Source of the DNA: Escherichia phage SP27 | DNA length: 64,000 nucleotides | Strand: one strand, 5' to 3' | Sequence record: LC494302.1 | In this document: piece after piece, positions 10,347 through 64,000 of the stretch | Layout of the letters: each line of letters opens with the position of its first letter | Position numbering within the stretch: the stretch's first letter is position 1 | Position numbers and translations under genes: made by a program | Notes under the pieces: model-generated | Seen by the model: the letters and a program-made list of their open reading frames with translations, nothing else | The model's database searches: none | What the model was told of the DNA's origin: nothing

Positions 10347-10349
10347 GAA

Positions 10350-15839: not shown

Positions 15840-15850
15840 TACGAGCTTCC

Positions 15851-16641: not shown

Positions 16642-16675
16642 TATAATTGTTGATGTGGAGAAGAAGGAAGTCGTT

Positions 16676-17128: not shown

Positions 17129-17141
17129 GGAGTATATCAAT

Positions 17142-17930: not shown

Positions 17931-17945
17931 TTAGATAAAATTAAA

Positions 17946-17971
17946 GCCACTACAATGTAGTGGCTTTTTTT
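17946..17971. terminator. terminator between convergent genes
   Basis: GCCACTAC-AAT-GTAGTGGC then T7 on plus strand. Confidence 0.65.
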
Positions 17972-17972
17972 A

Positions 17973-19127: not shown

Positions 19128-19140
19128 TTATCCCTCCATT

Positions 19141-19170
19141 GGTATAATTATTATAACGTATTTATTATGC
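19141..19170 (-). promoter_or_regulatory. late-type promoter candidate
   Basis: Minus strand reads GCATAATAAATACGTTATAATAATTATACC; resembles T4 late TATAAATA and the RCC1-array cassette promoter. Confidence 0.45.
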
Positions 19171-19187
19171 ATATCCAAAAAATGAGC

Positions 19188-19216
19188 TTGACTGGTGTAT
19201 GATTTGGTGTTATCAT
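19188..19216 (+). promoter_or_regulatory. sigma70-like early promoter
   Basis: TTGACT-17 nt-TATCAT. Confidence 0.6.
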
Positions 19217-19243
19217 GTAGTGAATGAATAATGAGGTGTTTTT

Positions 19244-19828: not shown

Positions 19829-20052
19829 TTACTGCAACTGTATATCAAGATATCAATGAAGAATTTCATTCTAAAATTGCGTTCTTATCATTTCCTGTAC
19901 TCCCAGTAGTTGGGTCAACGTTGAATCTTACCATTTGTGGGTTTGAGAAATATTATAAAGTTCTAGATATTGAGTACTGTGCTGATGTATATTCATGTAA
20001 TAGTGAAATTGCAATTCCAGTATCAATCGATATTATTGTAAAAGAGGTTTGA
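19825..20052 (+). CDS. hypothetical protein
   Basis: 75 aa, GTGA overlap start, CAGGAG 8 nt upstream. Confidence 0.55.
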   Translation: MITATVYQDINEEFHSKIAFLSFPVLPVVGSTLNLTICGFEKYYKVLDIEYCADVYSCNSEIAIPVSIDIIVKEV

Positions 20053-20054
20053 TT

Positions 20055-20510
20055 ATGTTTAAGAATTTTATGGTTATCGTAGCAGTACTGTTTGGTACAT
20101 CATGTTTTATTTCCCCAGTACACGCAGAAGAACAACGTCAAACTATTAAAACTATTGGGACTGGTAAAACTCCCCCTAAACGTACTGCTGACGAATACAT
20201 GCCTGAAATGCGTGAACGTTATCGTCAGACATACAGGGAAAAACATGCTAATGATAAACCCATCAAGAAGCATAAATGGGAAGTTGTTAAATCTCCTTCA
20301 TTTTGTGCTGGATATGCTAAAGTAAAGATTGAGCAGCACAAAAACCAGTACTATAAAGATATGTATTACTTCTATGACTCCAGAATTTCTGACACAGATA
20401 TGATGGCAGGGAAGGTTGATAAAGAAGAATTTCTACAAGGCTATGATATGATGGACGATGACAAAATCATGGAATGCGTTGAAGTGTATGAAAAATACAG
20501 AGGCTTCTGA
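20055..20510 (+). CDS. secreted hypothetical protein
   Basis: ATG 20055 behind AGAGG; signal peptide ...FISPVHA-EEQ. Confidence 0.65.
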   Translation: MFKNFMVIVAVLFGTSCFISPVHAEEQRQTIKTIGTGKTPPKRTADEYMPEMRERYRQTYREKHANDKPIKKHKWEVVKSPSFCAGYAKVKIEQHKNQYYKDMYYFYDSRISDTDMMAGKVDKEEFLQGYDMMDDDKIMECVEVYEKYRGF

Positions 20511-49849: not shown

Positions 49850-51019
49850 CTAAGCAGAAGGCATATCCTTCATCTTAATAAATGAAAATTGTGTACCAGT
49901 ATTTGTGGTTTGATCAGTAAAATATGAATTACTACCAGCCCAGTACAATTCATTATTAACTATACAATATATAACAGAACTCGAACTCTGTGAATACACA
50001 CGACTTATATTTGATGGTTCTACTCCAGTACTGAACTGAACCGAACCCAACTGTGAACTTGGTATCACATCAGTTGGTCTACCTAAACCATTAACACCAG
50101 CCCCACCACCACATGTATATACCCCAGTACTATCAGTTGATATATTAACATAACCATTTCCAGCATTTTCAAATAGTATTTCACTGGGAACAACACCAAA
50201 TCCTGTAAGATCTATTTTCCTGAATGTAGTATAAACCGTAGAACCGCCAACACCTCTTCCACCATAATCATTAGAACCAGCCATATAGATACTATATCCA
50301 GAACTTCCTAAACATAATAACTGTACGTTGTCATATAATATTTGCATAGATATAACGTTATCAGGAATACTCAATACCGTAAAAGTAGTTAAAGAAGAAC
50401 TTCCAATATTACTACCAACCGATGTTCCACATCTGTAGTACTTACCGCCCTTTATATAATGGAATGATGAACCACCTAATTTATGTGCTCCTATTGCACT
50501 TACCTCAGTATCTATGAGAATGGGAGATACAACTTTGTTATTAACACCTAACTCAGATCTACTGTTCATACCGAACCCATATAAACGACCATCTAACATC
50601 AATATTAGTGTACTACCTGATGTACCCGCTGATGTAAATTCTATATTCTTTATCTGTGACACGTCAATACCTACAAATAATGAAGTTACTTCAGTCCAGT
50701 TAACATATGAACCACTAGCCCCAAAATATCCACCCATGTATAGTCCGGCACAATATAACTTATTATCAACCGTCTTTATTAATGTACCGGATACACACGC
50801 CCAAAAATCATCAACTTCATAGGGTACATGTACCCAACCACCTAATACATCACTATCATTCCCTGTTCCTAATTTGTAGTTCGATCCAGAACCACGCATA
50901 TACATATTCCCTGTACTATAAAGTAATCCGACATGTAATTGACTACCATCCAATTTCTTTATTTCGGGAAGAGTTGGTTTAATATTTCCGTACTTTAACA
51001 TTCTTCCAAAAGGTAACAT
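49850..51019 (-). CDS. RCC1-like repeat protein with MLPF tag
   Basis: Trimmed to MLPFGRMLKYGNIKP; blades with GSNYKLGTGN, GMNSRSELGVNN. Confidence 0.8.
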   Translation of the reverse strand: MLPFGRMLKYGNIKPTLPEIKKLDGSQLHVGLLYSTGNMYMRGSGSNYKLGTGNDSDVLGGWVHVPYEVDDFWACVSGTLIKTVDNKLYCAGLYMGGYFGASGSYVNWTEVTSLFVGIDVSQIKNIEFTSAGTSGSTLILMLDGRLYGFGMNSRSELGVNNKVVSPILIDTEVSAIGAHKLGGSSFHYIKGGKYYRCGTSVGSNIGSSSLTTFTVLSIPDNVISMQILYDNVQLLCLGSSGYSIYMAGSNDYGGRGVGGSTVYTTFRKIDLTGFGVVPSEILFENAGNGYVNISTDSTGVYTCGGGAGVNGLGRPTDVIPSSQLGSVQFSTGVEPSNISRVYSQSSSSVIYCIVNNELYWAGSNSYFTDQTTNTGTQFSFIKMKDMPSA

Positions 51020-51097
51020 AATTCCTCCTTTATTCATTATACTATATTTAATACAAATAAGAAAGCCAGTACAAAGTACTGGCATAGTTTTATAGTA
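51020..51097 (-). promoter_or_regulatory. array cassette (hairpin terminator + late-type promoter + SD)
   Basis: Minus: GCCAGTAC-TTT-GTACTGGC, TTTCTTATTTGTATTAAATATAGTATAATGAATAAAGGAGGAATT-ATG. Confidence 0.7.
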
Positions 51098-52207
51098 TTA
51101 TTTCGGCATTGTAATTGCAGACCATGAGTTCGTGGTAATAGGACCTGGTACATACAAAAAAGAACCACAAGCATAAATTTGATTATTACCATCAAATACT
51201 ATACTAAAATGTGCACATGTGTATAATGATGATTTTTCTGGGTTGTAATTATCTAAAGTTAGTGTATTGGTGAATCTACTCAAACCACCTCCCGAACCAT
51301 TTCTACCAAATTCACCAGTACTGTATATCTTTCCTTCGGTTGTTGCGTACATATTAACATATGAAGTCGCACTTGATTTTGATATTTTATGTATCTTACT
51401 ATCAATAGTAGTGGAGTTAAATGCAAATGGATATACTTGTGTGTTCGTTGTAATACCGTTACCAAGTTGACCAATATACTGCCAACCTGCGTTGTATATA
51501 TTGCTGGCTGAATAAGCAAGAGTACCAGTACTGTTACCACCAAATAGTTTAACACTTGTTAACCTGCTTACTAGTGTAGTATACTGTCCTGGACTTACGC
51601 CAAGTGAACCATACCCACTGCTCCCGCAACCGAGAAGTTCATTATTTGATGTTAATATTAATGTGTTATTCTGTGTACCCAATATATCAAGAACTGTATT
51701 AGCTCCGGTATTAATAACTGAAACAAAAGTACTCTGAGCCGTGGAATACCCACCACCGAGTGAATAGTTACCATTCATGCCTCTACCATAAACAATCGAA
51801 CCACTAGCATCAACGTAGTGCATTGTATCTGCACCAATTGATATCATTTTAATATTAGATATATGTGGAAATGAAGAAGTAACATTCAAACCACCCAACG
51901 GAATCATAGTATTTCCTGTGCCTAATTGTGTGGTAACTCCATGCATTATGAATTCTTCACCCTTGAGATAAAGAATATTGTACGCACCAGCCCATGCATC
52001 AGTAACACCTTCTGAAATTAATATCCAAGTATTTCTTGTTGCTGTATTTTCAACGTTTAACTGCAAATACGTATTAACCCCACAACCATAAAGTGAGCCA
52101 TCGCCATAGAGGACGTACAAATTATCAAGACCGCACAGTACTTTCTTTATCTTTGGAGCTTCAGGTGCAATATTTCCGTACTTAACCATTCTAGCAAAAG
52201 GTAACAT
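51098..52207 (-). CDS. RCC1-like repeat protein with MLPF tag
   Basis: MLPFARMVKYGNIAP; GSSGYGSLGV, IGQLGNGI; SD directly after upstream stop (no cassette). Confidence 0.8.
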   Translation of the reverse strand: MLPFARMVKYGNIAPEAPKIKKVLCGLDNLYVLYGDGSLYGCGVNTYLQLNVENTATRNTWILISEGVTDAWAGAYNILYLKGEEFIMHGVTTQLGTGNTMIPLGGLNVTSSFPHISNIKMISIGADTMHYVDASGSIVYGRGMNGNYSLGGGYSTAQSTFVSVINTGANTVLDILGTQNNTLILTSNNELLGCGSSGYGSLGVSPGQYTTLVSRLTSVKLFGGNSTGTLAYSASNIYNAGWQYIGQLGNGITTNTQVYPFAFNSTTIDSKIHKISKSSATSYVNMYATTEGKIYSTGEFGRNGSGGGLSRFTNTLTLDNYNPEKSSLYTCAHFSIVFDGNNQIYACGSFLYVPGPITTNSWSAITMPK

Positions 52208-52217
52208 AAATTCCTCC

Positions 52218-53397
52218 TTAAATTTGTGGCAATTGGTATTCAGTTAAAGTCCATGTACCAACAACTGTCCCTACTGGAGACATACCAGTGTAGTATAATT
52301 TCCCATTCACATATGCAAATAATGCATTGTCATTCGCAGCAACCAACGATGTTGACGGATCATAAACTACAGAATTTGGAAATTGTGCTTGGACGAAAAT
52401 TGAAGCATTATTAGATGAATTGTTACCAAGCTGTCCATAATTATTATACCCTGTTCCAAAAATACGACTTCCATTTCTATATAATAATCCCCTAGGATTT
52501 TGTGAATATGTTTGTATAAATTCAAAATCGGAAACATTAGTTAATTGTAAATAAGTACTTTGTGGCGTTAAAGATATCTTATTAGTATTAGATAGAACAC
52601 CATTTCCTAATTGTCCGTGAATTTTGTGACCCTACACCATATAGCGGATAAGTATTATCTACATTAAGAACTATACCCAACATATTGTTATATGAAATTA
52701 TATCAACGGGGTACTGGCCTGTAGGAAAACTATACTTTGTCCAACTCGTCAAAGTATCAGTAGCAGAACCAGTTAACAATGTACCAGTACTAGTTTTACC
52801 ACATCGCCATACTGAATTATCATTTTTAATTATCCAAGTCGGACTATTGAAAAATGAACTAACCTTTTTAACATTAATATTAACCTGTGTAAATGATGTA
52901 AGTGTAGATGAACTACTACCCAACTCATAGGTCGAATTATCACCTATTGCGTAAAGAACACTATCATTTGTTAGTAAAAACATATTACGAACATTTGGAT
53001 ATATCTCCTTGATATTATCCACATTAAAACCTGAAAAATAAGACGTACAATCAACAAATGTAGTACTTTGAACTGCACTAGATGTACCAGTCCAAAGGTT
53101 CCAACCTGCATAATAAAATTTATTATCATTGGTCTGAACTAAGCTATATGAAGCATTCCTTGTGCACCAAAAATTTTTCACATTTTGCATTAAGCGAACC
53201 CATTTGGTCTGTGTCGTTGTATTTCCAAGACCGAATATACCAGCATTGTTACCGCCAATACCCCACAAATCACCGTTCTTATACAGAATCATCAATGTGT
53301 TGTTGGTAAAAGCCGATGGTGCTTGCATTTTAATTACACTAGATTCATATATAGGTGCTATATTCCCGTACTTAACCATTCTTGCAAAAGGTAACAT
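52218..53397 (-). pseudogene. RCC1-like paralog interrupted by a +1 frameshift
   Basis: Frame A MLPFARMVKYGNIAP... stops at 52588; +1 frame continues HGQLGNG...GYNNYGQLGNNS... to TAA 52218; shift near A4 run 52622-52625. Confidence 0.6.
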
Positions 53398-53505
53398 AAA
53401 TCCCTCCTTTATTCATTATACTATATTTAATACAAAAAGAAATGCCAGTATCAAGTACTGGCATTATGTTAATTAATAGTGTCTTTCTAAACACATTTCG
53501 TGCCT
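53398..53505 (-). promoter_or_regulatory. array cassette (longer copy)
   Basis: Same hairpin/promoter/SD plus ~37 extra nt after upstream stop. Confidence 0.7.
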
Positions 53506-54681
53506 TTATTCAGGTAGTACCAATTTCTTCATTGTAACTTGTTGTGTACCTGGACTCTGTTCCTGAAACATAGACCCGTTACCACACCAGTACACCTCAT
53601 TAGTCCCCACTAACGCGTATAACACACCAGAACCACCTTGTACTGAAAATGCATTAACATCTGGTGCAACATCCATATCCTCATATTGTACCTGGTGGTA
53701 ATAAGATCTTTCTGATGCAGTAGTAACAGGCCAACCAAGAGGAACACCACTACCACATGTATAAAGTTTACCATTCTGTGTCATTGCCATTATAAAATAA
53801 TTCAAACTGTGATTGTTCATCGACCCAGCATCTGGTATAATACCACTAATTTCGGGAGTAGCACTAAATGGACTCATTGTAACCTTCGTGTCTCCATACC
53901 CAATTCCTAAACAATAATCAGTGTTTATCCCAGCAGTATATACTCTAATATTACCCTTATTCGATGTAAGTACTGAAGTCGTCAAATTAGTACATGAAAT
54001 ACCAATAACTGTTCCAGATATATCAGTACTTACTGTAAATGTGGATAGTTTAGATGCACTTGTACCTAGGTTATAACTTGCGTTATTACCACATCTGTAA
54101 TATTGACCATTTTTAACATAATGTAAAGCACCACCAAAGTGTGTACCAGCAATCATAGTAACACCAGTATCAATCTTAATCGGTGTCGCTTTTGCACCAG
54201 AAACACCCAGTTCACCTCCAGTATTACTACCTATCCCGTATAAATCACCATTGCTTAACATAATTAATAAAGTACCATTTGAAGCGACAGTCTCAGTAGA
54301 AGCTATATCTTGAACTGTAGTAAGGCTTGGTATTGTAGACAATATTGATGTAATATTTGTCCATCCTGGAACAGGCGATTTGACCACACCAAGGTATCCC
54401 ATTTGTCCTGCTAAGTAAAATTCTCCTTCAGTCGTAAGTATAATGGTCCCTGCGGATAAACACCAAACATTAGCAACTTTATATGGACACTGTATCCATC
54501 CATTTTGTAAATACGCAGTACTATCATTTCCTAGCCTATATTGTGCACCATTACCACGTAGATATAAATTGCCACTATCGAACAACATACCCACATGTGT
54601 TGTAGATGTAGCAATCTTCAGTACACCCGAAGGTGCTGGTTTAACATTCCCGTACTTAACCATTCTTGCAAAAGGTAACAT
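53506..54681 (-). CDS. RCC1-like repeat protein with MLPF tag
   Basis: MLPFARMVKYGNVKP; GSNTGGELGVSG. Confidence 0.8.
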   Translation of the reverse strand: MLPFARMVKYGNVKPAPSGVLKIATSTTHVGMLFDSGNLYLRGNGAQYRLGNDSTAYLQNGWIQCPYKVANVWCLSAGTIILTTEGEFYLAGQMGYLGVVKSPVPGWTNITSILSTIPSLTTVQDIASTETVASNGTLLIMLSNGDLYGIGSNTGGELGVSGAKATPIKIDTGVTMIAGTHFGGALHYVKNGQYYRCGNNASYNLGTSASKLSTFTVSTDISGTVIGISCTNLTTSVLTSNKGNIRVYTAGINTDYCLGIGYGDTKVTMSPFSATPEISGIIPDAGSMNNHSLNYFIMAMTQNGKLYTCGSGVPLGWPVTTASERSYYHQVQYEDMDVAPDVNAFSVQGGSGVLYALVGTNEVYWCGNGSMFQEQSPGTQQVTMKKLVLPE

Positions 54682-54753
54682 AAATTCCTCCTTTATTCAT
54701 TATACTATATTTAATACAAAAAGAAATGCCAGTACTTGAGTACTGGCTTTATG
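54682..54753 (-). promoter_or_regulatory. array cassette
   Basis: GCCAGTACT-CA-AGTACTGGC hairpin, conserved promoter/SD block. Confidence 0.7.
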
Positions 54754-55905
54754 TCAATAAACATCCCAAGGTAATGGTGTCTTTCTAAACCCATACCTAG
54801 TTGCGTTCTGCCCATCTCCGGCAATGTATCTACCGGTCCCACACTGATATAATTCAGTACTGCTACATATCGCACCACCAATAGTACCACTACACCACTG
54901 TGTTATATTAGAATATAATATTGGTAAATCACTACATTTGGTATATAATGCAACAGTGGCAGCCCCGCTCGGACCACCAAACACACTTCGGTTCGAACCC
55001 GTGTAATATATGCCATCTGGACTCATAAATGCAGATGTATAAGTTGTACTGCAATCCACTGGACTTCTTATATTATTAAGATCGCTTGGGTATGCTCTAG
55101 CACCATATGTGTATACATTACCAGCAGTAGTAATACCATTACCTAACTGACCATCATTTTGTCCACCACATGTAACCAACGATGCAGTACCGGAAACAAT
55201 TGCAGTAGCATTATACGAAGTACCTATAGCAATAGAAGCACCCGCCCTTTGGGATGGGGTAGGAACTGCGGCTGCGTTCCCCTGACCTAATTCACCATTG
55301 ACATTTCTTCCCCATCCATATACCGAGGTGGTATCTAATTGACATAGTACTGTACCATAACTAAACGTATATCGTATATCTTTCACAGCCGATGGTAAAC
55401 CACTAACTTTAGTTGCAACACTAATAACTCCAGAAACACCAGTAACTCCAGCGTTTGCGTTCATATTACGTCCATATGCGTATAAAGAACCATCAGCAGT
55501 TTTAATATGCATCATGCCATCTGTGCAATATAATGCATCGATGCTATCCACTACAACCGCTCCCATACTAGACGTTATATCGTTCCACCCAAGCGTTGTA
55601 GTACTAGAAATTAAGTTATTTCCGGCGTAAAGTATTCTATTATCATTTGTAACAACTACAGTATAATTGGTAGTAACGCCAATTAATCTAACATTCTCAT
55701 GTATCTTAGACCACATTCCTATTGAATTTGTGTTAGCGTCCAGAAATCCCAACTGACCAGCGGTATTATATCCAATACCCCACACATCACCTTCACTGTC
55801 CAATAACACTTCATGTGAAAAGCCAATCTTAAAATCTTTTATTGTAGGAACTACTGGAACTGGTGCAATATTCCCGTACTTAACCATTCTTCCAAAAGGT
55901 AACAT
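54754..55905 (-). CDS. RCC1-like repeat protein with MLPF tag
   Basis: MLPFGRMVKYGNIAP; GYNTAGQLG, WGRNVNGELGQGN, GQNDGQLGNG. Confidence 0.85.
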   Translation of the reverse strand: MLPFGRMVKYGNIAPVPVVPTIKDFKIGFSHEVLLDSEGDVWGIGYNTAGQLGFLDANTNSIGMWSKIHENVRLIGVTTNYTVVVTNDNRILYAGNNLISSTTTLGWNDITSSMGAVVVDSIDALYCTDGMMHIKTADGSLYAYGRNMNANAGVTGVSGVISVATKVSGLPSAVKDIRYTFSYGTVLCQLDTTSVYGWGRNVNGELGQGNAAAVPTPSQRAGASIAIGTSYNATAIVSGTASLVTCGGQNDGQLGNGITTAGNVYTYGARAYPSDLNNIRSPVDCSTTYTSAFMSPDGIYYTGSNRSVFGGPSGAATVALYTKCSDLPILYSNITQWCSGTIGGAICSSTELYQCGTGRYIAGDGQNATRYGFRKTPLPWDVY

Positions 55906-55977
55906 AATTCCCCTCCTTATTCATTATACTATATTTAATACAAATAAGAAAGCCAGTATCAAGTACTGGCCTATATT
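55906..55977 (-). promoter_or_regulatory. array cassette
   Basis: Conserved hairpin/promoter/SD block. Confidence 0.7.
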
Positions 55978-56715
55978 TTAGACTGAATTGTTAGGATAAT
56001 ATCTCCCACGTCCCCATATTATTCGCACAGCACCACCACCAGCAGCCGTATAAGAAAAATTATCCCATATACTACCACCACCACCATACATCTTACCAGC
56101 ACCACCACTACCAGCACCACCATTATATGAACCATCGTATCTACCGCCAATACCATTAGCACCTTGAACAATGATACCAGTACCACCACCCGTACCAATG
56201 AACGAGGTATTATAGAATGCACCACCACCACCGCCGCCGCCAGCACCATTTTCACCAGTGATTGCATCTCCGTTACCACCTTTACCAGTGTAGCCACCAG
56301 CACCACCACCAATGACTGCACCACCACTTACACCAGCGTTGCCCCCATTACCACCACCATCATTAATAGCGTTAGCAGCTTTCCCACCTAGTCCACCAAC
56401 CCTATATTCACCAGTGAAGCTAACACATAGTTTTTCAGTTCCACGATATAAACCGTTTTCAACTGCTGTAGTAGTGTTGGGATGTGTAAGAGAAACACTT
56501 AAGTACTCACCACTAGTAACCGGAATATTATTACGCCACGATAAGCCGCCACCAGCACCACGTTGACCACCCGGCGAAATAACACATACTGATATTTCGG
56601 TAACGCCAGCAGGAACTGTAAATTGTGTTGTTCCTATTGTCGTGATTAATTGTTCACCATCTGGCTTATATTCAATTTTATTCCCGTACTTTACCATTCT
56701 TCCAAAAGGTAACAT
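55978..56715 (-). CDS. glycine-rich protein carrying the same MLPF tag
   Basis: Trimmed to MLPFGRMVKYGNK; FTVPAGVTEISV..., long GGxGG tracts, ends GGGAVRIIWGRG...; no RCC1 blades. Confidence 0.75.
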   Translation of the reverse strand: MLPFGRMVKYGNKIEYKPDGEQLITTIGTTQFTVPAGVTEISVCVISPGGQRGAGGGLSWRNNIPVTSGEYLSVSLTHPNTTTAVENGLYRGTEKLCVSFTGEYRVGGLGGKAANAINDGGGNGGNAGVSGGAVIGGGAGGYTGKGGNGDAITGENGAGGGGGGGAFYNTSFIGTGGGTGIIVQGANGIGGRYDGSYNGGAGSGGAGKMYGGGGSIWDNFSYTAAGGGAVRIIWGRGRYYPNNSV

Positions 56716-56786
56716 ACTTCCTCCTTTATTCATTATACTATATTTAATACAAATAAGAAAGCCAGTACTCAGTACTGGCTATTATA
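56716..56786 (-). promoter_or_regulatory. array cassette
   Basis: Conserved hairpin/promoter/SD block. Confidence 0.7.
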
Positions 56787-57974
56787 TTATAATTGTCGGG
56801 GTGTATCTAGTACATATCTAGTTGTACTAGGACCACCATCATCATAAGTTCCGGTTGAATATATATTTTTCATATCAGTTAGAAATGTACGATATGAACC
56901 TCTATATATTTTTATTTTATCATACATAGAATATGTTATTTGTGTAGGCATTGGACATGCAGTAAACTTACCAACAGTTGCACTAGTACCAATACCCAAT
57001 GAACCAGCATAACTACTGGCATTTAAACCAGTTGCATATACACCAGTACTCGTAATTAGTATACTAGATTGTGGTGGGTATCCAGTATGAATTGAATACA
57101 AAGTACCGGGTGGTAACGTCGTACTGTTATTTCCTAAAACTCCATTAACAGAGCTAGATGTAGTGTTATTTCCCCATGCCCCATTATTAGCTAACCCACC
57201 GACAAGGAACTGACGTGCTCCTGTATTTGGATTTTCAACTAAAGCACTTACTGCACCAGTTGAGCATCCTGTGTATTGTAACGTTTTTGTGTATGTTGTA
57301 TTTGGTTGATATAAAGTATATTGATTATATGAAGTCCATGTAGTCGCGGAACTTATACCGGATGTAACACCACCAATATATAAATTATTTTGTTTATCAA
57401 ACAACAATACACAGTTATTTGTTGACTGTATTTGTGCAATATCAACATTAGGTGTGACCGCTTTTACAAATGAACCATCGGTTATTTCATAAGTAGTTCC
57501 CGTTCCATCGGCGAATTGTCTAGCACTGTTCCACCCTGTACTCCATATTGTATTATTGTCCATTAAGAAAGTAAACCACGTAGTACCTCCATACATCTGT
57601 TTAATTGAAGTACTTGAACTTTGTGTGTACAAATTTTGAATATATTGGTTATAACTTAAAAACGTAGTAGTACTAGTTGATAAACCAATATGACTACCAT
57701 ATCCACAGTAATAATAATTTGAGTCATTGTCTTTTACTAATAAAGTTCCTTGTGTAAGCCAGCAATCGTTAACGTTTTCTCTAATTAATGTCCATGATTT
57801 TAATGCAGTGTTGTTTCCTCTACCGAATTTCCCAAAACTATTATTCCCACGTGCATATAGTTGACCATCCGTATACAGAACCACAACATCTAAATCAGTT
57901 GGGATTATTTTCTTAATTTGAAGTGGTACTGGGGCAATATTCCCATAATTCATCATTCTTGCAAAAGGTAACAT
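56787..57974 (-). CDS. RCC1-like repeat protein with MLPF tag
   Basis: MLPFARMMNYGNIAP; GNNSFGKFGRGN, GWNSARQF. Confidence 0.8.
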   Translation of the reverse strand: MLPFARMMNYGNIAPVPLQIKKIIPTDLDVVVLYTDGQLYARGNNSFGKFGRGNNTALKSWTLIRENVNDCWLTQGTLLVKDNDSNYYYCGYGSHIGLSTSTTTFLSYNQYIQNLYTQSSSTSIKQMYGGTTWFTFLMDNNTIWSTGWNSARQFADGTGTTYEITDGSFVKAVTPNVDIAQIQSTNNCVLLFDKQNNLYIGGVTSGISSATTWTSYNQYTLYQPNTTYTKTLQYTGCSTGAVSALVENPNTGARQFLVGGLANNGAWGNNTTSSSVNGVLGNNSTTLPPGTLYSIHTGYPPQSSILITSTGVYATGLNASSYAGSLGIGTSATVGKFTACPMPTQITYSMYDKIKIYRGSYRTFLTDMKNIYSTGTYDDGGPSTTRYVLDTPRQL

Positions 57975-58045
57975 AAATTCCTCCTTTATTCATTATACTA
58001 TATTTAATACAAATAAGAAAGCCAGTATCAAGTACTGGCATTAAA
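57975..58045 (-). promoter_or_regulatory. array cassette
   Basis: Conserved hairpin/promoter/SD block. Confidence 0.7.
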
Positions 58046-59194
58046 TCATTGTATAAATGACATATCAACTTCTGTATAACTAAGAATGTTTTGTCCAGCA
58101 ATTCCCCCCATTACTACCATAGCATACCCACAATAATATAATTGCTCAGTGTCCGTAAGTATAAGTGAACCAGATGGAGTGCGTACCAAATTACACGAAC
58201 TATTAAACGAAGTATACGAAGGAGTATATGAGTACTGATTAATATTATTACCAACACCTAATTGACCAAATCCATTCGACCCAGATGCGTATAGAACTTC
58301 ATCACCTTTAGCTATATGTGATGCCATGTTACTAACACACGTATATAGAGTATAAACTCCTGAACTCAATAATGTCGGAGTTTTGTATTGTATATCGGTA
58401 GATGAAGAAGTACCACCTGTGCCAAATTCGTTCCCGTATTGTGCACCGAACTGTTTACCACAAGCGTACAAATTATTATCCGATTTAATAAAAAATGTAC
58501 TTTGATAACTTACATCAAAATCTATAACATCCGAAGCAATCATCGTCACCCCAGTAATAGAAGTTTGATTACCTGTACCTAACTGATAGTAATAGTTAAA
58601 ACCACAACCCCATAAAGTATTATCTTCTTTTAGGTATATGTTACCAACTGCCTTTTTAACCGAAGTTATAGTATCTACCCTTTTGAATGTGTTAAAAGAA
58701 TTAATGTTTGTACCATCACCAAATGATGATAGGTTCGAGTTATTGTTAACTCCACAACAATACAACGTACCATCGTTTGTTATCAAATTCACCTTCATAT
58801 CATTAAAACTACTCATGTATTTTATATCAGAAACATTAATACCACCTGATGTTATCCACGTAGTACAGTCCGTCCACAAAGTTTTTGTATCAGTTACACC
58901 AGTGAATGCCTTCGTGTTACCAGTGATAAAAACTTTTCCAGTACCTTTCTCTTCATACAATTGACAACTACTACTGTTATCTTCCAATAGAACTCGTTTA
59001 ACATTCTCCGCACAAAGAATAAATTTACTCGATGCTACACCTGTACCAGTACCCCAATTCGTCGAAGAAGATGCATACAACTTATTAGTATAAGTATCAT
59101 GAAGATACATAGAATCACTTGAATATATTTTAAAACGCCTATCCTTACCAGGGGCAATATTCCCATAATTCATCATTCTTACAAAAGGTAACAT
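58046..59194 (-). CDS. RCC1-like repeat protein with MLPF tag
   Basis: MLPFVRMMNYGNIAP; GFNYYYQLGTGN, GSNGFGQLGVGN. Confidence 0.8.
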   Translation of the reverse strand: MLPFVRMMNYGNIAPGKDRRFKIYSSDSMYLHDTYTNKLYASSSTNWGTGTGVASSKFILCAENVKRVLLEDNSSSCQLYEEKGTGKVFITGNTKAFTGVTDTKTLWTDCTTWITSGGINVSDIKYMSSFNDMKVNLITNDGTLYCCGVNNNSNLSSFGDGTNINSFNTFKRVDTITSVKKAVGNIYLKEDNTLWGCGFNYYYQLGTGNQTSITGVTMIASDVIDFDVSYQSTFFIKSDNNLYACGKQFGAQYGNEFGTGGTSSSTDIQYKTPTLLSSGVYTLYTCVSNMASHIAKGDEVLYASGSNGFGQLGVGNNINQYSYTPSYTSFNSSCNLVRTPSGSLILTDTEQLYYCGYAMVVMGGIAGQNILSYTEVDMSFIQ

Positions 59195-59265
59195 ATTTCC
59201 CTCCTTTATTCATTATACTATATTTAATACAAATAAGAAAGCCAGTACAGTGTACTGGCATTATA
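59195..59265 (-). promoter_or_regulatory. array cassette
   Basis: Conserved hairpin/promoter/SD block. Confidence 0.7.
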
Positions 59266-60405
59266 TTATTTCCACGGTAGAAGTGAATCAGGAACCCTTG
59301 TTGGTACAGTAGTTGAAGACATTCCAGTAAGATTGGGTACACCACATGTGTATAAATTATTATATTCGTCAACTAACATCGTATAAGAATAGCTCTTACA
59401 AAAACTACTAAGATTACTACCTTCTAATGCAGTAAGATCCATTTCAGCGAATGATGTTATATACATATCAGTTGTACCAATACCACATTGACCATTTGAA
59501 TTAAGGCCACATGAAAATAACTTATTATTATTATTAATTATACAGGATGGTCCGGTAAGGTTTGTCCCAAGCTCACCCACCAACTCCACTTCTCCTTGGA
59601 ATGATAAATTTGGAATTAATGTACTCATTGGGGCTACTGACCTATTTCCTGTACCTGCTTGTCCATAGTCGTTAATAGATGCAACTTTAACATTACCATC
59701 ATTAAGAAATATATAAGAAGTTTCATTTGTATTGACTGCTTTAATTGCATTACTAATCGAAGTATCTTGTGTAAATGTGAGCAAGTTTTGTGTCGTCGTT
59801 CCTGATACAAACGTTCTACCTGCATACCAATATGAACCATCATTTAGTACTAATCCAGTACTATATATTGCACAACCAGCACTGATAACATTTTCTATTG
59901 TACTATAGGTGAATCGTGAAACGCTTGAAGTTGATCCATTCCCAAAAACACCACCAGTACCAGCACCACAGTAGAACCACTTTCCATTTTTTAAAAATAC
60001 ACGCATACACGAAGATATCACAACACTATCAATATCATCTGCACTGACACCGAAATCAGTAAAGTTCTGTGTTATATCAACCCAAACGCCGTTAGTGTTT
60101 GAAGATAGTATTGGAATAACAGTACGTCTACCAGTGTACCAAATAGTACCATCTTTCTTTATAGCAATTGTTCCTTGTACCCCACCCCAATATCGTGTAA
60201 CATTTGAGTTGACAAGAGTCCATTCAGTTGAAGAGTCCAATGAACCATTACCACTTTGTCCATATGCTGAAGAACCAAACCAATATAGATTGCCATTTGT
60301 GTGTAAATAAAATTTGGCATCAGCAGAACATTGTAACCTGTTTTTAGGTAGAATCAGTTCAGGTGCGATATTCCCGTACTTAACCATTCTTGCAAAAGGT
60401 AACAT
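59266..60405 (-). CDS. RCC1-like repeat protein with MLPF tag
   Basis: Tracked ORF reads through the cassette; trimmed to MLPFARMVKYGNIAP at 60405; GLNSNGQCGIGT, NDYGQAGTGN. Confidence 0.8.
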   Translation of the reverse strand: MLPFARMVKYGNIAPELILPKNRLQCSADAKFYLHTNGNLYWFGSSAYGQSGNGSLDSSTEWTLVNSNVTRYWGGVQGTIAIKKDGTIWYTGRRTVIPILSSNTNGVWVDITQNFTDFGVSADDIDSVVISSCMRVFLKNGKWFYCGAGTGGVFGNGSTSSVSRFTYSTIENVISAGCAIYSTGLVLNDGSYWYAGRTFVSGTTTQNLLTFTQDTSISNAIKAVNTNETSYIFLNDGNVKVASINDYGQAGTGNRSVAPMSTLIPNLSFQGEVELVGELGTNLTGPSCIINNNNKLFSCGLNSNGQCGIGTTDMYITSFAEMDLTALEGSNLSSFCKSYSYTMLVDEYNNLYTCGVPNLTGMSSTTVPTRVPDSLLPWK

Positions 60406-60475
60406 ATTCCCTCCTTTATTTGTTATACTATATTTAATACAAATAAGAAAGCCAGTACTCTGTACTGGCATTATG
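60406..60475 (-). promoter_or_regulatory. array cassette
   Basis: Conserved hairpin/promoter/SD block. Confidence 0.7.
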
Positions 60476-61585
60476 TTATTTTGGTAAATCAATTTTAGTA
60501 AAGACTGCAACATCCTCGATTGCACCTGGAATGGCGTAATACGATCCAGTACTATACACATCTCCATTTTTGGTTAATATCGATGTCAAACCATCACTAA
60601 AAAGAACATCCCTAATCTCACTAACTTCAACGGGTAATTGTAAATTGGTAGCACTATATATAGCACCAGTTTGAGAATTGTTTAATCCCAAACCACGGTT
60701 CGCCCCAACACCCTTCTGATATGTACTAGTAATTACCATTTGTGTAGCAGTATTTAAGGCAGGTGAATTCGTCATAAACAACGGAGAACTATTAGGCAAA
60801 GTACTTAAAGGAACTGCACGGAATGTAGTCGTACCTGAACTAAGAAAGTTTGGAGTTTGACCACATACGAAATATGATGTACCATTATAGTAATTTAATG
60901 CATTACCACCAATGGCTGCATCGATTACACCAGAACTACGCAATCCCCAAGTGTTAATTTGTGTTTGGTTCCCCGTACCATGCTGCCCACTACTATTCCA
61001 TCCAGAACTATATAGCTTATTATCTAATGTAAGATACATACTATCATTCGCATTGGTCATTACTTTACGAACGTTCGTAGCACATTGAGTTAATGTGTAA
61101 ATTGATGATGAACCAATACCCAAAGAACCACGATATCCATTATCTCCTGCACCATAGAGTACTGAATTAGTGCTAAGTACAAATATTAAACCATTTGTAC
61201 ATACAATATTAGCAATTTCACTTACTGGTATAGCATTGGTAAACCAATTAGTTCTTTCAACTAATACAGTACTGTAAGAAGTAGTTGTAGAAGATGAGAA
61301 CCAGTACGTTTGACCTGATGTCCATATCGTATTATCATTTTTAATAATAACAAGTGTACGATCACCCACGAAAAAATTAGAAACATCTGCACTTACTAAT
61401 GTCCACGAAGACACCGTGTTGGTATTACCATTTCCAGATTCACCACCTTGATTTCTACCTATGTAATATAAATCATGTGAATCAGTCAATAAGAATTGGC
61501 CTTGGGTAGAAGCACCAACTTTAATTATTTTTTTAGGACCAGGGACAATATTTCCATACATAATCATTCTTCCAAAAGGTAACAT
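60476..61585 (-). CDS. RCC1-like repeat protein with MLPF tag
   Basis: Trimmed to MLPFGRMIMYGNIVP; GRNQGGESGNGN, GWNSSGQHGTGN; SD directly after upstream stop. Confidence 0.8.
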   Translation of the reverse strand: MLPFGRMIMYGNIVPGPKKIIKVGASTQGQFLLTDSHDLYYIGRNQGGESGNGNTNTVSSWTLVSADVSNFFVGDRTLVIIKNDNTIWTSGQTYWFSSSTTTSYSTVLVERTNWFTNAIPVSEIANIVCTNGLIFVLSTNSVLYGAGDNGYRGSLGIGSSSIYTLTQCATNVRKVMTNANDSMYLTLDNKLYSSGWNSSGQHGTGNQTQINTWGLRSSGVIDAAIGGNALNYYNGTSYFVCGQTPNFLSSGTTTFRAVPLSTLPNSSPLFMTNSPALNTATQMVITSTYQKGVGANRGLGLNNSQTGAIYSATNLQLPVEVSEIRDVLFSDGLTSILTKNGDVYSTGSYYAIPGAIEDVAVFTKIDLPK

Positions 61586-61593
61586 ATTCCCTC

Positions 61594-62796
61594 CTATTGT
61601 TGCCATAACTGCGATGGCATTAATGTTAGTGTAGTAATACTATAAGTGCCATCTGGCAATCTACCACCATTTCCATTCCAGCCACCACATGCATATAATT
61701 TATAATCTTTAGTAATTATTATGGTTCTGCTCCAATCTTTAGATGCCATAAGAACATTGTCATAACCACTACTTATTGCACTAAGATTAAAAATATTCCA
61801 AGTTCTAACTAATGTATTAGTTCCATTACCTTCTTGACCATATGAGTTAGCACCACTACTTCTAACATATGGTGCGTATTGTGCCATAGGTGCACCAATT
61901 GATGCATTTCCCATATTACTTGGACAAATAAAAGTACTGTACTTACTTACATCAACCGTGACCGATGTGTTCCTAATTGGTGTTAGCTGATTTACCGATG
62001 TAGTCGTACCATTACCAGCTTGTCCAGAACTGTTAGCCCCGCTATAATATACAGACCCACCAGTAGTAAACCACCAAGTAACATCGTATGTAGTACTAAT
62101 ATGTTCTACATTACTAATCACGAATTTGTTCAAATATACAACAGAACTACCACCACATCCACTTTCACCAAAGTTATCCTTACCACAAAACCATGCATCT
62201 TTATTTGATTTGATATAGTGCGTTCCTTGTAATGAACATGCCATATGTGTAACTTCACCCATATTAGTCATAACTGTGAGTGTAGGGATGGAATTTTTAT
62301 TCCCAGAGCCACATTCACCATTAGTATTTCTTCCACACGCAATTACTCTACCATCGGTTAATAATATTCTAGTACTTTCACCTATATATACACTCTTGAT
62401 CATATTAGCCATAACACCTATTTTATTAAATGCAACAGTAACATCAGTCCATGTTGTCAAATAACCATTAACAGGTGTTGCATCTCCATAATCAGAAAAT
62501 GCACCAACCGACCCAGTGTAGTATATTTTATTATCCAAATCAATCATCAATGAACCTTGAACACCAAGCCAAAAGGCTGCACAGTTCCTTGCAAGTACTG
62601 TAAATGACGAAACTGCTGCTGAATTCCCAAGACCAAATTGATAAAAGTTATTACTACCATAACCATATAAAGTATTAGTTGGGTTATGGAGATACATACA
62701 GTTTGTATAATGTTGTTGTAAAACATCTGAGAACTCTACAGGTTCTGGACCTGGTGCAATATTTGCGTACTTAACCATTCTTCCAAAAGGTAACAT
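61594..62796 (-). CDS. RCC1-like repeat protein with MLPF tag
   Basis: MLPFGRMVKYANIAP; GRNTNGECGSGN, GANSSGQAGNGT, GANSYGQEGNGT. Confidence 0.85.
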   Translation of the reverse strand: MLPFGRMVKYANIAPGPEPVEFSDVLQQHYTNCMYLHNPTNTLYGYGSNNFYQFGLGNSAAVSSFTVLARNCAAFWLGVQGSLMIDLDNKIYYTGSVGAFSDYGDATPVNGYLTTWTDVTVAFNKIGVMANMIKSVYIGESTRILLTDGRVIACGRNTNGECGSGNKNSIPTLTVMTNMGEVTHMACSLQGTHYIKSNKDAWFCGKDNFGESGCGGSSVVYLNKFVISNVEHISTTYDVTWWFTTGGSVYYSGANSSGQAGNGTTTSVNQLTPIRNTSVTVDVSKYSTFICPSNMGNASIGAPMAQYAPYVRSSGANSYGQEGNGTNTLVRTWNIFNLSAISSGYDNVLMASKDWSRTIIITKDYKLYACGGWNGNGGRLPDGTYSITTLTLMPSQLWQQ

Positions 62797-62867
62797 ATTT
62801 CCCTCCTTTATTCATTATACTATATTTAATACAAAAAGAAATGCCAGTATCAAGTACTGGCATAATA
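62797..62867 (-). promoter_or_regulatory. array cassette
   Basis: Conserved hairpin/promoter/SD block. Confidence 0.7.
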
Positions 62868-64000
62868 TTATCGGTTAAATTTAAAATCTGTTATGTGTGT
62901 CCATGTATGATTTAATGGGGTACTCATTGGTGTAAAGCCAGCAGGGTCTGACAAAGCTGTACCACGTGCGTACATAAATTGATTGCCAGTACAATCCATT
63001 ATAGCATAAGAACGTGTTGCTGTGCCACATTTGAACCCAACTGCACTACTTGGGGTCGGTAATACTTCAAATGTAGGTGCATTTGAACTACCACCCCCAT
63101 CTTTTGTTCCAGCTATGTACAGAACTCCATTAGTATCAATGATTAAGTTAGTCCAATATGCTTGTTCTCGACCAGCATAAAAATATGTTAAATCACCGGG
63201 TACAAATGGTAACGTTCCTTTATATATTGTGGTATTAACATTCACTGGTGCACCAGCTACACCCCATGAACTCATATAGTTTCTCCCACTTGCGTAGAAT
63301 GTAGTTCCTTTACCGTAAAGTATTAATGTTGCTTGACTTGTTCGCATTGCATTATATTCAAACTCAGGATCATCAGTAGCGTCCTTAAAAATCTGTGTCC
63401 ATGTTGTTATATTGCCAGTAGTTGTAACACCCATTTGATAATAATAATTATCACCAGTAGCATAGAATTCTTTAGGGCCAGTTTGTACAATTGCATTCCC
63501 ATTAGTTAACCAAAAATCTAATGTATTAGTCTTGATCTTGGTTGGTGTGTAATTCGCCACGGTATTTCCTTTTCCGAAATAACCATTAGCGTTATTTCCA
63601 TGACCCCATAAATCACCATTAGTTGTGCGTAGGAATAATGTACCAGTATTGAATCCAACTTTTTCTATAGTACTTATGTCAATACCAACAGTCGTGTACT
63701 TCGTTGTAAAATCTTGAAAAGTACTCCAATAATTAGATGAACCATTAAACATGGTTTGTCTACCAGTGTACTTCACTTTATTATCGTTAGTGATAAGTAA
63801 TGTCCCCCACACTGACGCGAACATTAACTTAACATTTTCCATAACAAAGTATGGCTTACCGTATGCTGACGCGGTAGTGTTTAAACCTAATAGTTGTCCA
63901 TCATTACTACAACCCCATACTTCGCCGTTATCCAAAAGCATCAACATAGTAGGTTTGCCGGATGATACATCCAAAAAGAAATCTTTTGGTGTTGGTACAC
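62868..64000 (-). CDS. RCC1-like repeat protein, 5' end beyond window
   Basis: Frame stays open to nt 64000; WGCSNDGQLLG, GHGNNANGYFGKGN. Confidence 0.7.
   Translation of the reverse strand, partial: VPTPKDFFLDVSSGKPTMLMLLDNGEVWGCSNDGQLLGLNTTASAYGKPYFVMENVKLMFASVWGTLLITNDNKVKYTGRQTMFNGSSNYWSTFQDFTTKYTTVGIDISTIEKVGFNTGTLFLRTTNGDLWGHGNNANGYFGKGNTVANYTPTKIKTNTLDFWLTNGNAIVQTGPKEFYATGDNYYYQMGVTTTGNITTWTQIFKDATDDPEFEYNAMRTSQATLILYGKGTTFYASGRNYMSSWGVAGAPVNVNTTIYKGTLPFVPGDLTYFYAGREQAYWTNLIIDTNGVLYIAGTKDGGGSSNAPTFEVLPTPSSAVGFKCGTATRSYAIMDCTGNQFMYARGTALSDPAGFTPMSTPLNHTWTHITDFKFNR

What the first reader, a model, noticed from the sequence alone, without database searches (positions are those of the whole stretch)
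55978..56715. Glycine-rich, non-propeller protein inserted in the array with the same N-terminal tag and cassette
This gene starts MLPFGRMVKYGNK behind a standard cassette. It then encodes FTVPAGVTEISV..., long GGxGGxG tracts and a ...GGGAVRIIWGRG ending, with no RCC1 blades. The tag plus cassette therefore behaves as a portable module attached to unrelated folds. That supports a docking or targeting function for the 15-aa peptide rather than it being part of the propeller fold.
Basis: partly seen in the sequence, partly recalled or inferred. Interest (0 to 1): 0.65.

Follow-up and report, generated by a model that had tools for sequence, protein, structure and literature searches.

The report
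Shared virion tag on fibre-tip domain
A jumbo E. coli phage gene encodes a glycine-rich domain of the kind found at phage tail-fibre tips. It starts with the same 12-residue peptide as its propeller-protein neighbours, and that peptide heads at least five unrelated protein folds in related giant phages, many of which mass spectrometry has found in virions, so it is probably a shared virion-docking tag.

Summary
Window 55978-56715 (minus strand) encodes a 245-aa, 29%-glycine protein that starts MLPFGRMVKYGN. It sits behind the same terminator-promoter-SD cassette as its RCC1-like neighbours. The window is an Asteriusvirus (121Q/phAPEC6-like jumbo coliphage).

Residues 1-12 are low-confidence in the AF2 models of both this protein and a neighbouring propeller. 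The tag M-[LI]-P-F-x-R-[IML]-x-x-Y-G-N heads 64 collected proteins in at least five fold classes: RCC1-like, Kelch, LamG-like, glycine-rich and one unknown family. They come from Asteriusvirus, Salmonella phage Munch, CBB and uncultivated relatives.

Synonymous sites in the tag are near saturation (pS 0.53-0.69) while the peptide is kept (pN 0.08-0.21). Many tagged genes lack the cassette, so tag and cassette are separable.

Published mass spectrometry found 8 of 11 phAPEC6 and 7 of 9 CBB array proteins in virions. A docking function is inferred, not shown.

The parts
55978..56715 (-). Gene for the 245-aa glycine-rich protein (stop codon 55978-55980). It is identical to 121Q gene 243 and matches G17_00077.
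   Evidence: 100% identical cluster P0001 with 30 members
56680..56715 (-). Codons 1-12, the shared N-terminal tag MLPFGRMVKYGN.
   Evidence: AF2 pLDDT averages 47 over residues 1-10
56659..56679 (-). Codons 13-19 (KIEYKPD), a variable linker between the tag and the first conserved residue of the domain (G20).
   Evidence: alignment A1; pLDDT averages 73 over residues 11-20
55981..56658 (-). Codons 20-245: a TNF-like beta-sandwich (about residues 20-100 plus the closing strand AVRIIWG at 229-234) and a glycine-rich polyglycine-II lattice (about residues 100-228).
56720..56726 (-). Shine-Dalgarno AAGGAGG, four bases before the ATG.
   Evidence: read from the sequence
56732..56747 (-). Promoter-like box TTAAATATAGTATAAT of the cassette.
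   Evidence: 8 exact copies plus one with a single mismatch, all inside the array
56760..56780 (-). Terminator-like hairpin AGCCAGTACTGAGTACTGGCT with a T-rich tail. It ends the upstream propeller gene (56787-57974) and opens the cassette.
   Evidence: the equivalent sites are annotated as terminators in phage G17
55950..55972 (-). Terminator-like hairpin downstream of the glycine-rich gene. It is also the first element of the next cassette.
49850..64000 (-). The array: eleven complete tagged genes (ten RCC1-like propellers plus the glycine-rich gene) and one propeller gene cut by the window end.

Best explanation
The gene encodes a stand-alone tail-fibre-tip type module: a TNF-like beta-sandwich carrying a polyglycine-II glycine-rich lattice. 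In Pam3 gp24 and S16 gp38 this kind of module is the receptor-recognising end of a fibre.

It has no shaft or anchor domain. Instead it carries a 12-residue N-terminal peptide, M-[LI]-P-F-x-R-[IML]-x-x-Y-G-N. Jumbo phages of the Rak2-like group, here Asteriusvirus, Mimasvirus (CBB, GAP32), Salmonella phage Munch and uncultivated relatives, put this peptide on a whole repertoire of small globular binding-type modules.

The proposed mechanism is that the flexible peptide docks each module non-covalently onto one common acceptor site of the virion. The particle would then display many different binding heads, and the glycine-rich protein is one of them.

Shown here: the fold assignment by prediction; the tag on unrelated folds; peptide-level purifying selection; independence from the cassette.
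Taken from the literature: virion association of many tagged proteins.
Inferred: that the tag is what mediates incorporation; that the acceptor is external (fibres or whiskers); that the modules bind host surface structures.

The terminator-promoter-SD cassette is a separate, Asteriusvirus-specific way of making most array genes independent transcription units.
For: Fold
- AF2 with 84 homologs gives pLDDT 93.6 and pTM 0.90.
[quoted passage not shown] The tag sits where that docking domain would be.
- BFVD hits are 'glycine-rich domain' phage proteins, a tail fibre, a baseplate component and giant-virus collagen-like proteins.
- A profile search finds 6,751 cluster representatives. In many listed hits the matched stretch ends at or near the C-terminus of a protein of about 500-1,500 aa.

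Tag
- 64 collected proteins share it. P3, F4, Y10 and N12 are invariant, although part of the set was retrieved with a DNA pattern that fixes those positions.
- The protein bodies fall into RCC1-like (42), Kelch (6), LamG-like, glycine-rich (3) and unknown families.
- Munch_544 is a second glycine-rich protein with the tag, in another phage lineage.
- Residues 1-12 have pLDDT below 50 in both AF2 models.

Selection
- Tag codons 2-12 give pS 0.69 / pN 0.08 in L007 and L008, 0.65 / 0.14 in Munch and 0.53 / 0.21 in CBB. The next 12 codons give ratios near 1.
- Tag variants are genome-specific across paralogs despite synonymous divergence: RMLEYGN in all 7 L007 genes, RIVKYGN in both L008 genes. 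This is as expected for co-evolution with one shared partner.

Virion association
- phAPEC6 MS found gp003, 005, 006, 007, 009, 010, 549 and 551, that is 8 of 11 RCC1-like proteins against 62 of 551 genome-wide (hypergeometric p about 2e-6).
- CBB MS found CBB_536, 537, 548, 549, 551, 552 and 553, that is 7 of the 9 tagged genes (p about 4e-5).
- GAP32 gp001 was also found by MS and carries the tag (L030).

Precedent
- The 29-aa N-terminal 'conserved peptide' of KP32 RBP2 is necessary for incorporation and can be transplanted onto a foreign enzyme (PMC13352976).
Against: - No partner or acceptor site has been identified, and no experiment links the tag to incorporation.
- The glycine-rich protein itself has never been detected in a virion. 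In phAPEC6 it is mis-annotated and so was not among the annotated proteins.
- MS peptide coverage of the phAPEC6 propellers is low (3-17%), so they may be minor or loosely bound components.
- MS cannot tell outside from inside. The phAPEC6 authors suggested an internal DNA-organising role.
- Monomer AF2 models cannot show that a low-confidence peptide is unstructured in the assembled particle.
- Within the window the tag DNA is unusually uniform (pS 0.23 against 0.62 just downstream), so some DNA-level homogenisation or constraint on the translation-initiation region also acts here.
Confidence: 0.6

Rival explanations
1. The tag is a capsid-targeting sequence of the T4 type. It would carry the array proteins into the prohead, so that they become internal ('inner body' or ejected) proteins rather than surface modules.
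For: - The proteins are virion-associated.
- The phAPEC6 authors proposed a DNA-organising role for the RCC1-like proteins and saw an inner body.
- These phages list a 'prohead core scaffold and protease' among their virion proteins.
- From my own knowledge: about 10 N-terminal residues suffice for T4 capsid targeting.
Against: - No conserved protease site follows the tag. T4-type sites need L/I-x-E (my own knowledge), and position 9 is E in only 14 of 64 tags and otherwise K, T, N, S or D.
- All tagged folds are typical extracellular binding modules (RCC1-like, Kelch, LamG). The closest solved relatives of the glycine-rich domain are fibre-tip and brush domains on the outside of particles.
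- In many listed homologs the domain is the C-terminal end of a long protein.
- Two of the proteins that differ most between the near-identical phages fEgEco12 and Ecwhy_1 are array proteins. I read this as the pattern expected of host-contact proteins.
Confidence: 0.17
2. The conservation is at the nucleic-acid level. The first 36 nt would be part of the repeated cassette (a translation-initiation or regulatory element, or a homology patch for recombination and gene conversion between paralogs), and the peptide would have no function of its own.
For: - In the window the cassette and the start of each gene are nearly identical in DNA.
- Synonymous divergence in the tag is low there (pS 0.23 against 0.62 in the next codons).
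Against: - In L007/L008, Munch and CBB the synonymous sites of the tag are near saturation while the amino acids are kept (pN/pS 0.12-0.40).
- Most tagged genes in those phages, and two in the window, have no cassette and sit 7-12 nt behind the previous gene.
- Orthologs with 55-58% identity keep the peptide.
Confidence: 0.04
3. The tag is a handle for a folding or assembly chaperone, or for a modifying enzyme, in the infected cell. It would not be the contact to the virion.
For: - Fibre-tip glycine-rich domains need dedicated chaperones (Pam3 gp25).
- A shared peptide on many folds would suit a common handling factor.
- The sequence data here cannot separate this reading from docking.
Against: - Beta-propellers and LamG domains generally fold without dedicated chaperones (my own knowledge).
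- The experimentally tested precedent for a short shared N-terminal peptide is docking.
Confidence: 0.12
4. The gene is a decayed or low-complexity remnant of a propeller paralog and makes no functional protein.
For: - It lies in the middle of a propeller array and has very low sequence complexity.
- There is no direct Pfam hit.
- One neighbouring paralog is indeed frameshifted.
Against: - hhalign of the family profile against the propeller paralogs gives probability 0.06%.
- 197 homologs were found, with invariant non-glycine motifs.
- The AF2 model is very confident.
- The ORF is intact in 121Q, phAPEC6 and G17, and the gene has its own SD, promoter-like box and terminator.
- Tagged orthologs exist at 58% identity (P0003, from the uncultivated contig L008) and in phage Munch.
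Confidence: 0.01

Closest known systems
Pam3 gp24 tail fibre, S16 gp38 adhesin and Bxb1 gp33 'tail wing brush' (glycine-rich polyglycine-II domains; Pfam PF21722 Gly_rich_2)
   Same: - Predicted TNF-like sandwich plus a lattice of GGxGG-type extended segments.
- 26 of 84 sequence homologs hit PF21722.
- The C-terminal VRIIWG strand is conserved across the family.
   Different: - The window protein itself does not reach any Pfam hit at E<=0.1.
- It has no helical shaft or attachment domain (Pam3 gp24, S16 gp38), only a 12-aa peptide and a 7-aa linker.
- Oligomeric state and ligand are unknown.
'Conserved peptide' of the secondary receptor-binding protein of Klebsiella podophages KP32, K11 and KP34, which docks on the T4gp10-like branching domain of RBP1
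   Same: - A short N-terminal peptide is shared by otherwise unrelated receptor-binding proteins.
- In KP32 it lies outside the folded domain, is necessary for virion incorporation and can be transplanted onto a foreign enzyme (PMC13352976).
- The anatomy here is the same.
   Different: - 12 aa rather than 29.
- Carried by up to 16 paralogs per genome rather than one.
- Attached to small globular lectin-like modules rather than trimeric beta-helix depolymerases.
- Partner unknown and function untested.
- Sequence similarity between the two peptides was not examined.
T4 capsid targeting sequence (for example on IPIII)
   Same: A peptide of about 10 residues at the N-terminus that brings unrelated proteins into the particle (my own knowledge).
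   Different: No conserved L/I-x-E protease site after the tag. The cargo folds point to an external role.
RCC1-like 'DNA condensation proteins' of 121Q, PBECO4 and phAPEC6 (phrog_4219)
   Same: Same array, same tag, same cassette.
   Different: Unrelated fold. The 'DNA condensation' label rests only on similarity to eukaryotic RCC1: the neighbour's model matches UVR8, RPGR and HERC2 RCC1-like domains as a generic seven-bladed propeller.

Membership tests
PF21722 Gly_rich_2 / phage polyglycine-II glycine-rich domain | Significant match to the Pfam model | tested here: not met
   No Pfam family at E<=0.1 for the window protein. However, 26 of 84 of its phmmer homologs match PF21722 (best E 3.8e-13). 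P0038, for example, matches the query at 1.4e-16 and carries PF21722. Membership therefore holds by transitive homology only.
PF21722 Gly_rich_2 / phage polyglycine-II glycine-rich domain | Conserved motifs: repeated GGGxGG segments, GGGAGGY, and the C-terminal (A/G)VRIIWG strand followed by R-x-(F/Y)-P | tested here: met
   Alignment A1: invariant G121, G137, G138, A139, G141, Y142, G146, G202, G211, W234 and P241; nearly invariant R231.
PF21722 Gly_rich_2 / phage polyglycine-II glycine-rich domain | Fold: TNF-like beta-sandwich bearing a lattice of extended glycine-rich segments | tested here: met
PF21722 Gly_rich_2 / phage polyglycine-II glycine-rich domain | Located at the distal end of a virion fibre and binds a host receptor | not testable with these tools
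   Indirect only: the profile matches the C-terminal end of many long proteins. No proteomic or binding data exist for this protein.
RCC1-like seven-bladed propeller | RCC1 repeats or profile similarity to the array paralogs | tested here: not met
   Pfam finds none. hhalign of A1 against A2 gives probability 0.06%. The predicted fold is different.
N-terminal docking peptide of branched receptor-binding-protein systems (KP32 type) | Short N-terminal peptide conserved among proteins whose remaining sequence is unrelated | tested here: met
   64 proteins in at least 5 fold classes; pN/pS 0.12-0.40 in the tag against about 1 just downstream.
N-terminal docking peptide of branched receptor-binding-protein systems (KP32 type) | Peptide lies outside the folded domain | tested here: met
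   Prediction only: residues 1-12 have pLDDT below 50 in both models. In P0019 and P0022 an extra domain lies between the N-terminal leader and the glycine-rich domain.
N-terminal docking peptide of branched receptor-binding-protein systems (KP32 type) | A defined partner (branching domain) on another virion protein | not tested
   No partner was sought. Doing so needs whole-genome comparison or complex prediction.
N-terminal docking peptide of branched receptor-binding-protein systems (KP32 type) | Peptide necessary and sufficient for incorporation into virions | not testable with these tools
   Only correlative: 8 of 11 (phAPEC6) and 7 of 9 (CBB) array proteins were found by virion MS.
T4-type capsid targeting sequence | N-terminal targeting peptide ending in a prohead-protease site (L/I-x-E) | tested here: not met
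   No conserved glutamate: position 9 is K21, E14, T7, N5, S5, D3 across the 64 tags.

The most novel reading that the evidence does not exclude
Rak2-like jumbo phages may use one 12-residue N-terminal peptide as a universal 'plug'. It would mount a repertoire of up to about 16 lectin-like heads per genome onto a common acceptor on the particle, possibly the unexplained 'hairy' whiskers of phAPEC6 and CBB. The heads include RCC1-like and Kelch propellers, LamG jelly rolls and glycine-rich fibre-tip domains. On this reading the many 'DNA condensation proteins' annotated in these genomes are really a combinatorial surface-adhesin display system, and the tag would be a ready-made handle for displaying foreign proteins on jumbo phages.
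Probability: 0.4. Interest if true: 0.75.

Novelty: new variant of a known kind. Interest (0 to 1): 0.6.

Why it matters
- Dozens of genes per genome in 121Q, PBECO4, phAPEC6, Munch, CBB and GAP32-type phages are annotated as 'DNA condensation' or 'regulator of chromosome condensation', or are left hypothetical. A shared, selected N-terminal tag on five unrelated binding folds, together with virion proteomics, recasts them as one functional class of virion-mounted modules.
- This gives a concrete, testable candidate for the components of the unexplained whiskers.
- It also offers a minimal 12-aa candidate tag for loading cargo onto jumbo phage particles, in the way the KP32 'conserved peptide' is now used for host-range engineering.
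- The glycine-rich gene is the clearest pointer to an external, receptor-facing role, because its solved relatives are fibre tips.

Tried and rejected
- Direct Pfam scan of the glycine-rich protein: nothing at E<=0.1. PHROGs gives only phrog_4474, 'unknown function'.
- Profile search of PDB sequences with A1: no hit at E<=1. Only fold comparison gave relatives.
- Word-indexed homolog search with a propeller neighbour: only 11 hits, too few to survey tags. DNA-pattern scans of IMG/VR and annotated records were used instead.
- Literature: no paper in the library contains the tag strings. The Sharanji and fEgEco12 papers and the jumbo-phage comparative review say nothing about the tag or the glycine-rich gene. 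Sharanji has no proteomics.
- The CBB supplements hold no peptide-level MS data, so whether the tag is retained in mature protein could not be checked.
- Ungapped identity of the 46 nt upstream of each ATG (mean 0.65) is misleading because of 1-nt spacer indels. The exact 16-mer count is the better measure.
- 'Decayed propeller', 'integral velcro strand' and 'DNA-level conservation only' were considered and rejected.
- A sigma-70 consensus scan of the array gave no excess over shuffles (63 against 69 expected), so the promoter assignment of the cassette rests on position and repetition only.
- The two 548-aa proteins starting MLPFYSVKDYAN (L025, L028) were not counted as tagged. They come from small unrelated contigs and may be chance matches.

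Full report
**Where the window comes from.** The region 55000-58000 matches E. coli jumbo phages of the genus Asteriusvirus (phAPEC6 93.9% over 100%; 121Q, G17 and Sharanji about 97% over 71%). The left 49 kb of the window holds small plus-strand genes. From 49850 to the right end there is a minus-strand array of genes of about 370-400 aa.

**The observation.** On the minus strand, 55978-56715 encodes 245 aa starting MLPFGRMVKYGNKIEYKPDGEQLITTIGTTQFTVPAGVTEISV and ending GGGAVRIIWGRGRYYPNNSV.
- Glycine is 28.6% overall and 38% in residues 100-245.
- The three neighbours tested hit the RCC1-like Pfam families and phrog_4219. This protein hits no Pfam family, and only phrog_4474 of unknown function.
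- Upstream lies a hairpin (56760-56780), the box TTAAATATAGTATAAT (56732-56747) and the SD. The 16-mer occurs eight times exactly and once with one mismatch, always in the array and nowhere else in the 64 kb, each time behind a GCCAGTAC-N3-5-GTACTGGC hairpin. In phage G17 these hairpins are annotated as terminators.
- Eleven complete array genes start M-L-P-F-[AGV]-R-M-x-x-Y-[GA]-N, although the propeller paralogs share only 22-33% identity overall.
The shared core is 12 residues. Positions 13-15 (IAP) belong to the propeller paralogs only.

**What the protein is.** A homolog search found 197 proteins, mostly 240-280 aa, from large phage contigs. The distant ones carry PF21722 (Gly_rich_2).
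- In the 84-sequence alignment A1 the conserved body starts at G20. It contains invariant GGGAGGY and the W of the VRIIWG motif, with its R nearly invariant.
- Twenty-six of the 84 members match PF21722, but the window protein itself does not. It is a divergent member by transitive homology.
- AF2 with A1 gives pLDDT 93.6 and pTM 0.90.
[quoted passage not shown] It relates these to the S16 gp38 adhesin and to ALK (PMC9608196). The Bxb1 domains have since been recognised as the same polyproline-II-type bundle (PMC13243192).
- Foldseek against predicted viral structures returns 'glycine-rich domain' phage proteins, a tail fibre, a baseplate component and giant-virus collagen-like proteins.
- An exhaustive profile search finds 6,751 cluster representatives (1,946 at E<=1e-30). 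Among the best 150, many hits are long proteins of about 500-1,500 aa whose matched stretch ends at or near the C-terminus, beside stand-alone forms of 240-280 aa.
- The fold is therefore ordinary and widespread. Its solved phage relatives sit at the outer ends of virion appendages.
- It is not a decayed propeller: hhalign of A1 against the propeller paralogs gives probability 0.06%.
- The gene is intact and identical in 121Q, differs by one synonymous change and one glycine codon in phAPEC6, and differs by 11 synonymous and 14 non-synonymous changes in G17.

**The tag is not part of either fold.** In the glycine-rich model, residues 1-10 average pLDDT 47 and the confident fold starts around residue 20. 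In the model of the neighbouring propeller (pLDDT 87.7), residues 1-12 are below 50 and the first strand starts at residue 22. The body of that model is a generic RCC1-like seven-bladed propeller matching UVR8, RPGR and HERC2 domains. These are monomer predictions, so the result is suggestive rather than proof.

**The tag is portable far beyond this gene.** Two DNA-pattern scans of IMG/VR, together with annotated records, gave further tagged genes. Pfam classified them as follows.
- Kelch propellers: L009_3985, L014_254, L019_11028.
- Laminin_G_3 (ConA-like) jelly rolls: L009_3268 and L019_5658 above the Pfam cut-off, L019_8946 below it.
- A 221-aa family with no Pfam match.
- Salmonella phage Munch has an array of at least 16 tagged genes: 13 RCC1-like, 2 others, and Munch_544, a glycine-rich protein (VIPFTKMLTYGNK ... 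GGVRIIWGGGRRFP).
- In Pectobacterium phage CBB all nine minus-strand genes CBB_536, 537 and 548-554 start MLPF[PTAS][RI]..Y[AG]N. They are annotated in the record as Kelch or LamG, or have no domain annotation, and none is RCC1-like.
- GAP32 gp001, an RCC1-like protein, also has the tag (L030).
- Among 64 collected proteins, P3, F4, Y10 and N12 are invariant. Part of the set was retrieved with a pattern that fixes these positions, but the window, L007, L008, Munch and CBB genes were not. The bodies fall into at least five unrelated classes.

**Peptide or DNA?** The evidence points to selection on the peptide, and shows that tag and cassette are separable.
- In a related uncultivated phage, seven tandem propeller genes (L007) all carry M[LI]PF[AV]RMLEYGN. 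In L008 a glycine-rich ortholog (58% identity) and the adjacent propeller both carry MIPFARIVKYGN.
- Nei-Gojobori-type counts for tag codons 2-12 give pS 0.69 / pN 0.08 (L007 and L008), 0.65 / 0.14 (Munch) and 0.53 / 0.21 (CBB). The next 12 codons give ratios of 0.9-1.1. Synonymous sites are thus near saturation while the peptide is held.
- Tag variants are shared by all paralogs within a genome but differ between genomes. Given the synonymous divergence, this fits co-evolution with one common partner better than gene conversion.
- In the window itself pS is only 0.23, so some DNA-level homogenisation or constraint on the initiation region also acts there.
- Most tagged genes in L007, L008, Munch and CBB, and two in the window (starts at 52207 and 61585), have no hairpin-promoter cassette and follow the previous gene by about 10 nt.

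**Are tagged proteins in the particle?** Published ESI-MS/MS data say that many are.
- phAPEC6 virions contained gp003, 005, 006, 007, 009, 010, 549 and 551, all RCC1-like array proteins. That is 8 of the 11 RCC1-like proteins the paper counts, against 62 of 551 proteins genome-wide (PMC7247149; hypergeometric p about 2e-6).
- CBB virions contained 7 of the 9 tagged proteins, with 9.5-51% coverage (PMC5259590; p about 4e-5).
- GAP32 gp001 was likewise found.
- phAPEC6 and CBB are the phages with unexplained 'hairy' fibres on tail and capsid, whose components are unknown.
- The glycine-rich protein itself has no proteomic record. In phAPEC6 the annotated 'gp004' is a wrong-frame ORF inside the intact gene, so the protein was not among the annotated ones.

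**Mechanism proposed.** The glycine-rich protein is a stand-alone fibre-tip type binding head. In place of the docking domain of Pam3 gp24, or the covalent shaft of the long homologs, it has the 12-aa tag.
- The tag most likely docks it, and every other array protein, onto one acceptor site of the virion.
- The closest tested precedent is the 29-aa N-terminal 'conserved peptide' of the second receptor-binding protein of Klebsiella phages KP32, K11 and KP34. It binds the branching domain of RBP1, is required for incorporation, and works when fused to a foreign enzyme (PMC13352976).
- Shown here: fold by prediction, tag distribution, peptide-level selection, separability from the cassette.
- From the literature: virion association.
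- Inferred: the causal role of the tag, an external location, and ligand binding.

**Rivals.**
- A T4-type capsid-targeting signal fits the virion association and the phAPEC6 authors' idea of a DNA-organising role. However, the tag has no conserved protease site, and the cargo folds, above all the glycine-rich domain, argue for the outside.
- A chaperone or enzyme handle cannot be excluded by sequence analysis.
- DNA-level conservation only, and a decayed propeller, are rejected as above.

**Novelty.** The glycine-rich domain is a known family and short N-terminal docking peptides are a known principle. A 12-aa tag shared by up to 16 paralogs of at least five globular folds across several jumbo-phage lineages does not appear in the searched literature. 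I rate it a new variant of a known kind, of moderate to high interest, because it reinterprets a large and widely mis-annotated gene class and is directly testable.

Noticed in passing
L002 9979-10713 (phAPEC6 MK817115, record about 7325-8059); corresponds to window 55978-56715: In phAPEC6 the glycine-rich gene is intact (244 aa). The record instead annotates 'gp004', a 100-aa valine-rich ORF in the wrong frame inside it, and the next propeller gene (L002 10785-12041) is not annotated at all. The published virion proteome lists neither protein, and neither is in the annotation.
   Followed up: yes
window 52208-53397 (minus strand): The 'short' 269-aa propeller paralog (52588-53397) is a frameshifted full-length gene. 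In the +1 frame the reading continues ...GHKIHGQLGNGVLSN...TEYQLPQI* down to 52208, ending at the SD of the next gene. The same 269-aa ORF is present in 121Q, G17 and phAPEC6 (gp007, detected by MS at 17.5% coverage). It is therefore a real, conserved frameshift: either a truncated product or recoding.
   Followed up: partly
alignment A1; L003 8134-10744; L006 14790-15632 (PVP-SE1 gp018): Glycine-rich homologs in other phages carry a different short N-terminal leader, M-x-E-[LM]-[LM] (at least 32 of 84). In a Plesiomonas phiTE-like phage contig, three adjacent genes just upstream of spanin-like genes and the terminase all start this way: a weak LamG-like protein (MNEMMIVS), and two glycine-rich proteins (MLELMVC and MIELLAIS). 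This may be a second, parallel tag system.
   Followed up: partly
P0002 (Logan contig, 206 aa): A variant of the same glycine-rich protein in which the tag codons are deleted (MNKGG-NKIEYKP, starting from the ATG inside the cassette) and an internal glycine-rich segment is missing. It may be a natural deletion or an assembly artefact.
   Followed up: no
window 56019-56327 (-), 56164-56391 (+), 56312-56566 (+): Valine-, threonine- and proline-rich ORFs overlap the gene in other frames. They look like by-products of the GGN codon repeats, and one of them was annotated as a gene in phAPEC6.
   Followed up: yes
L025 893 and L028 4385 (IMG/VR contigs of 20-23 kb): A 548-aa protein starting MLPFYSVKDYANAGK matches the relaxed tag pattern but sits in small, apparently unrelated viral contigs. 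It could be a chance match or a distant use of the motif.
   Followed up: no
L022 (CBB) 9369-10690 and 15197-20465; window array: The tagged genes are among the few minus-strand genes of these genomes: the CBB paper counts only 34 of 554 ORFs on the minus strand. In CBB and Munch they sit next to the genome end or terminal repeat.
   Followed up: no
P0019 and P0022 (344-345 aa): Some homologs have an extra domain of about 100 aa inserted between the N-terminal MLELL leader and the glycine-rich domain. This shows that the leader is positional (N-terminal) and not part of the domain.
   Followed up: no
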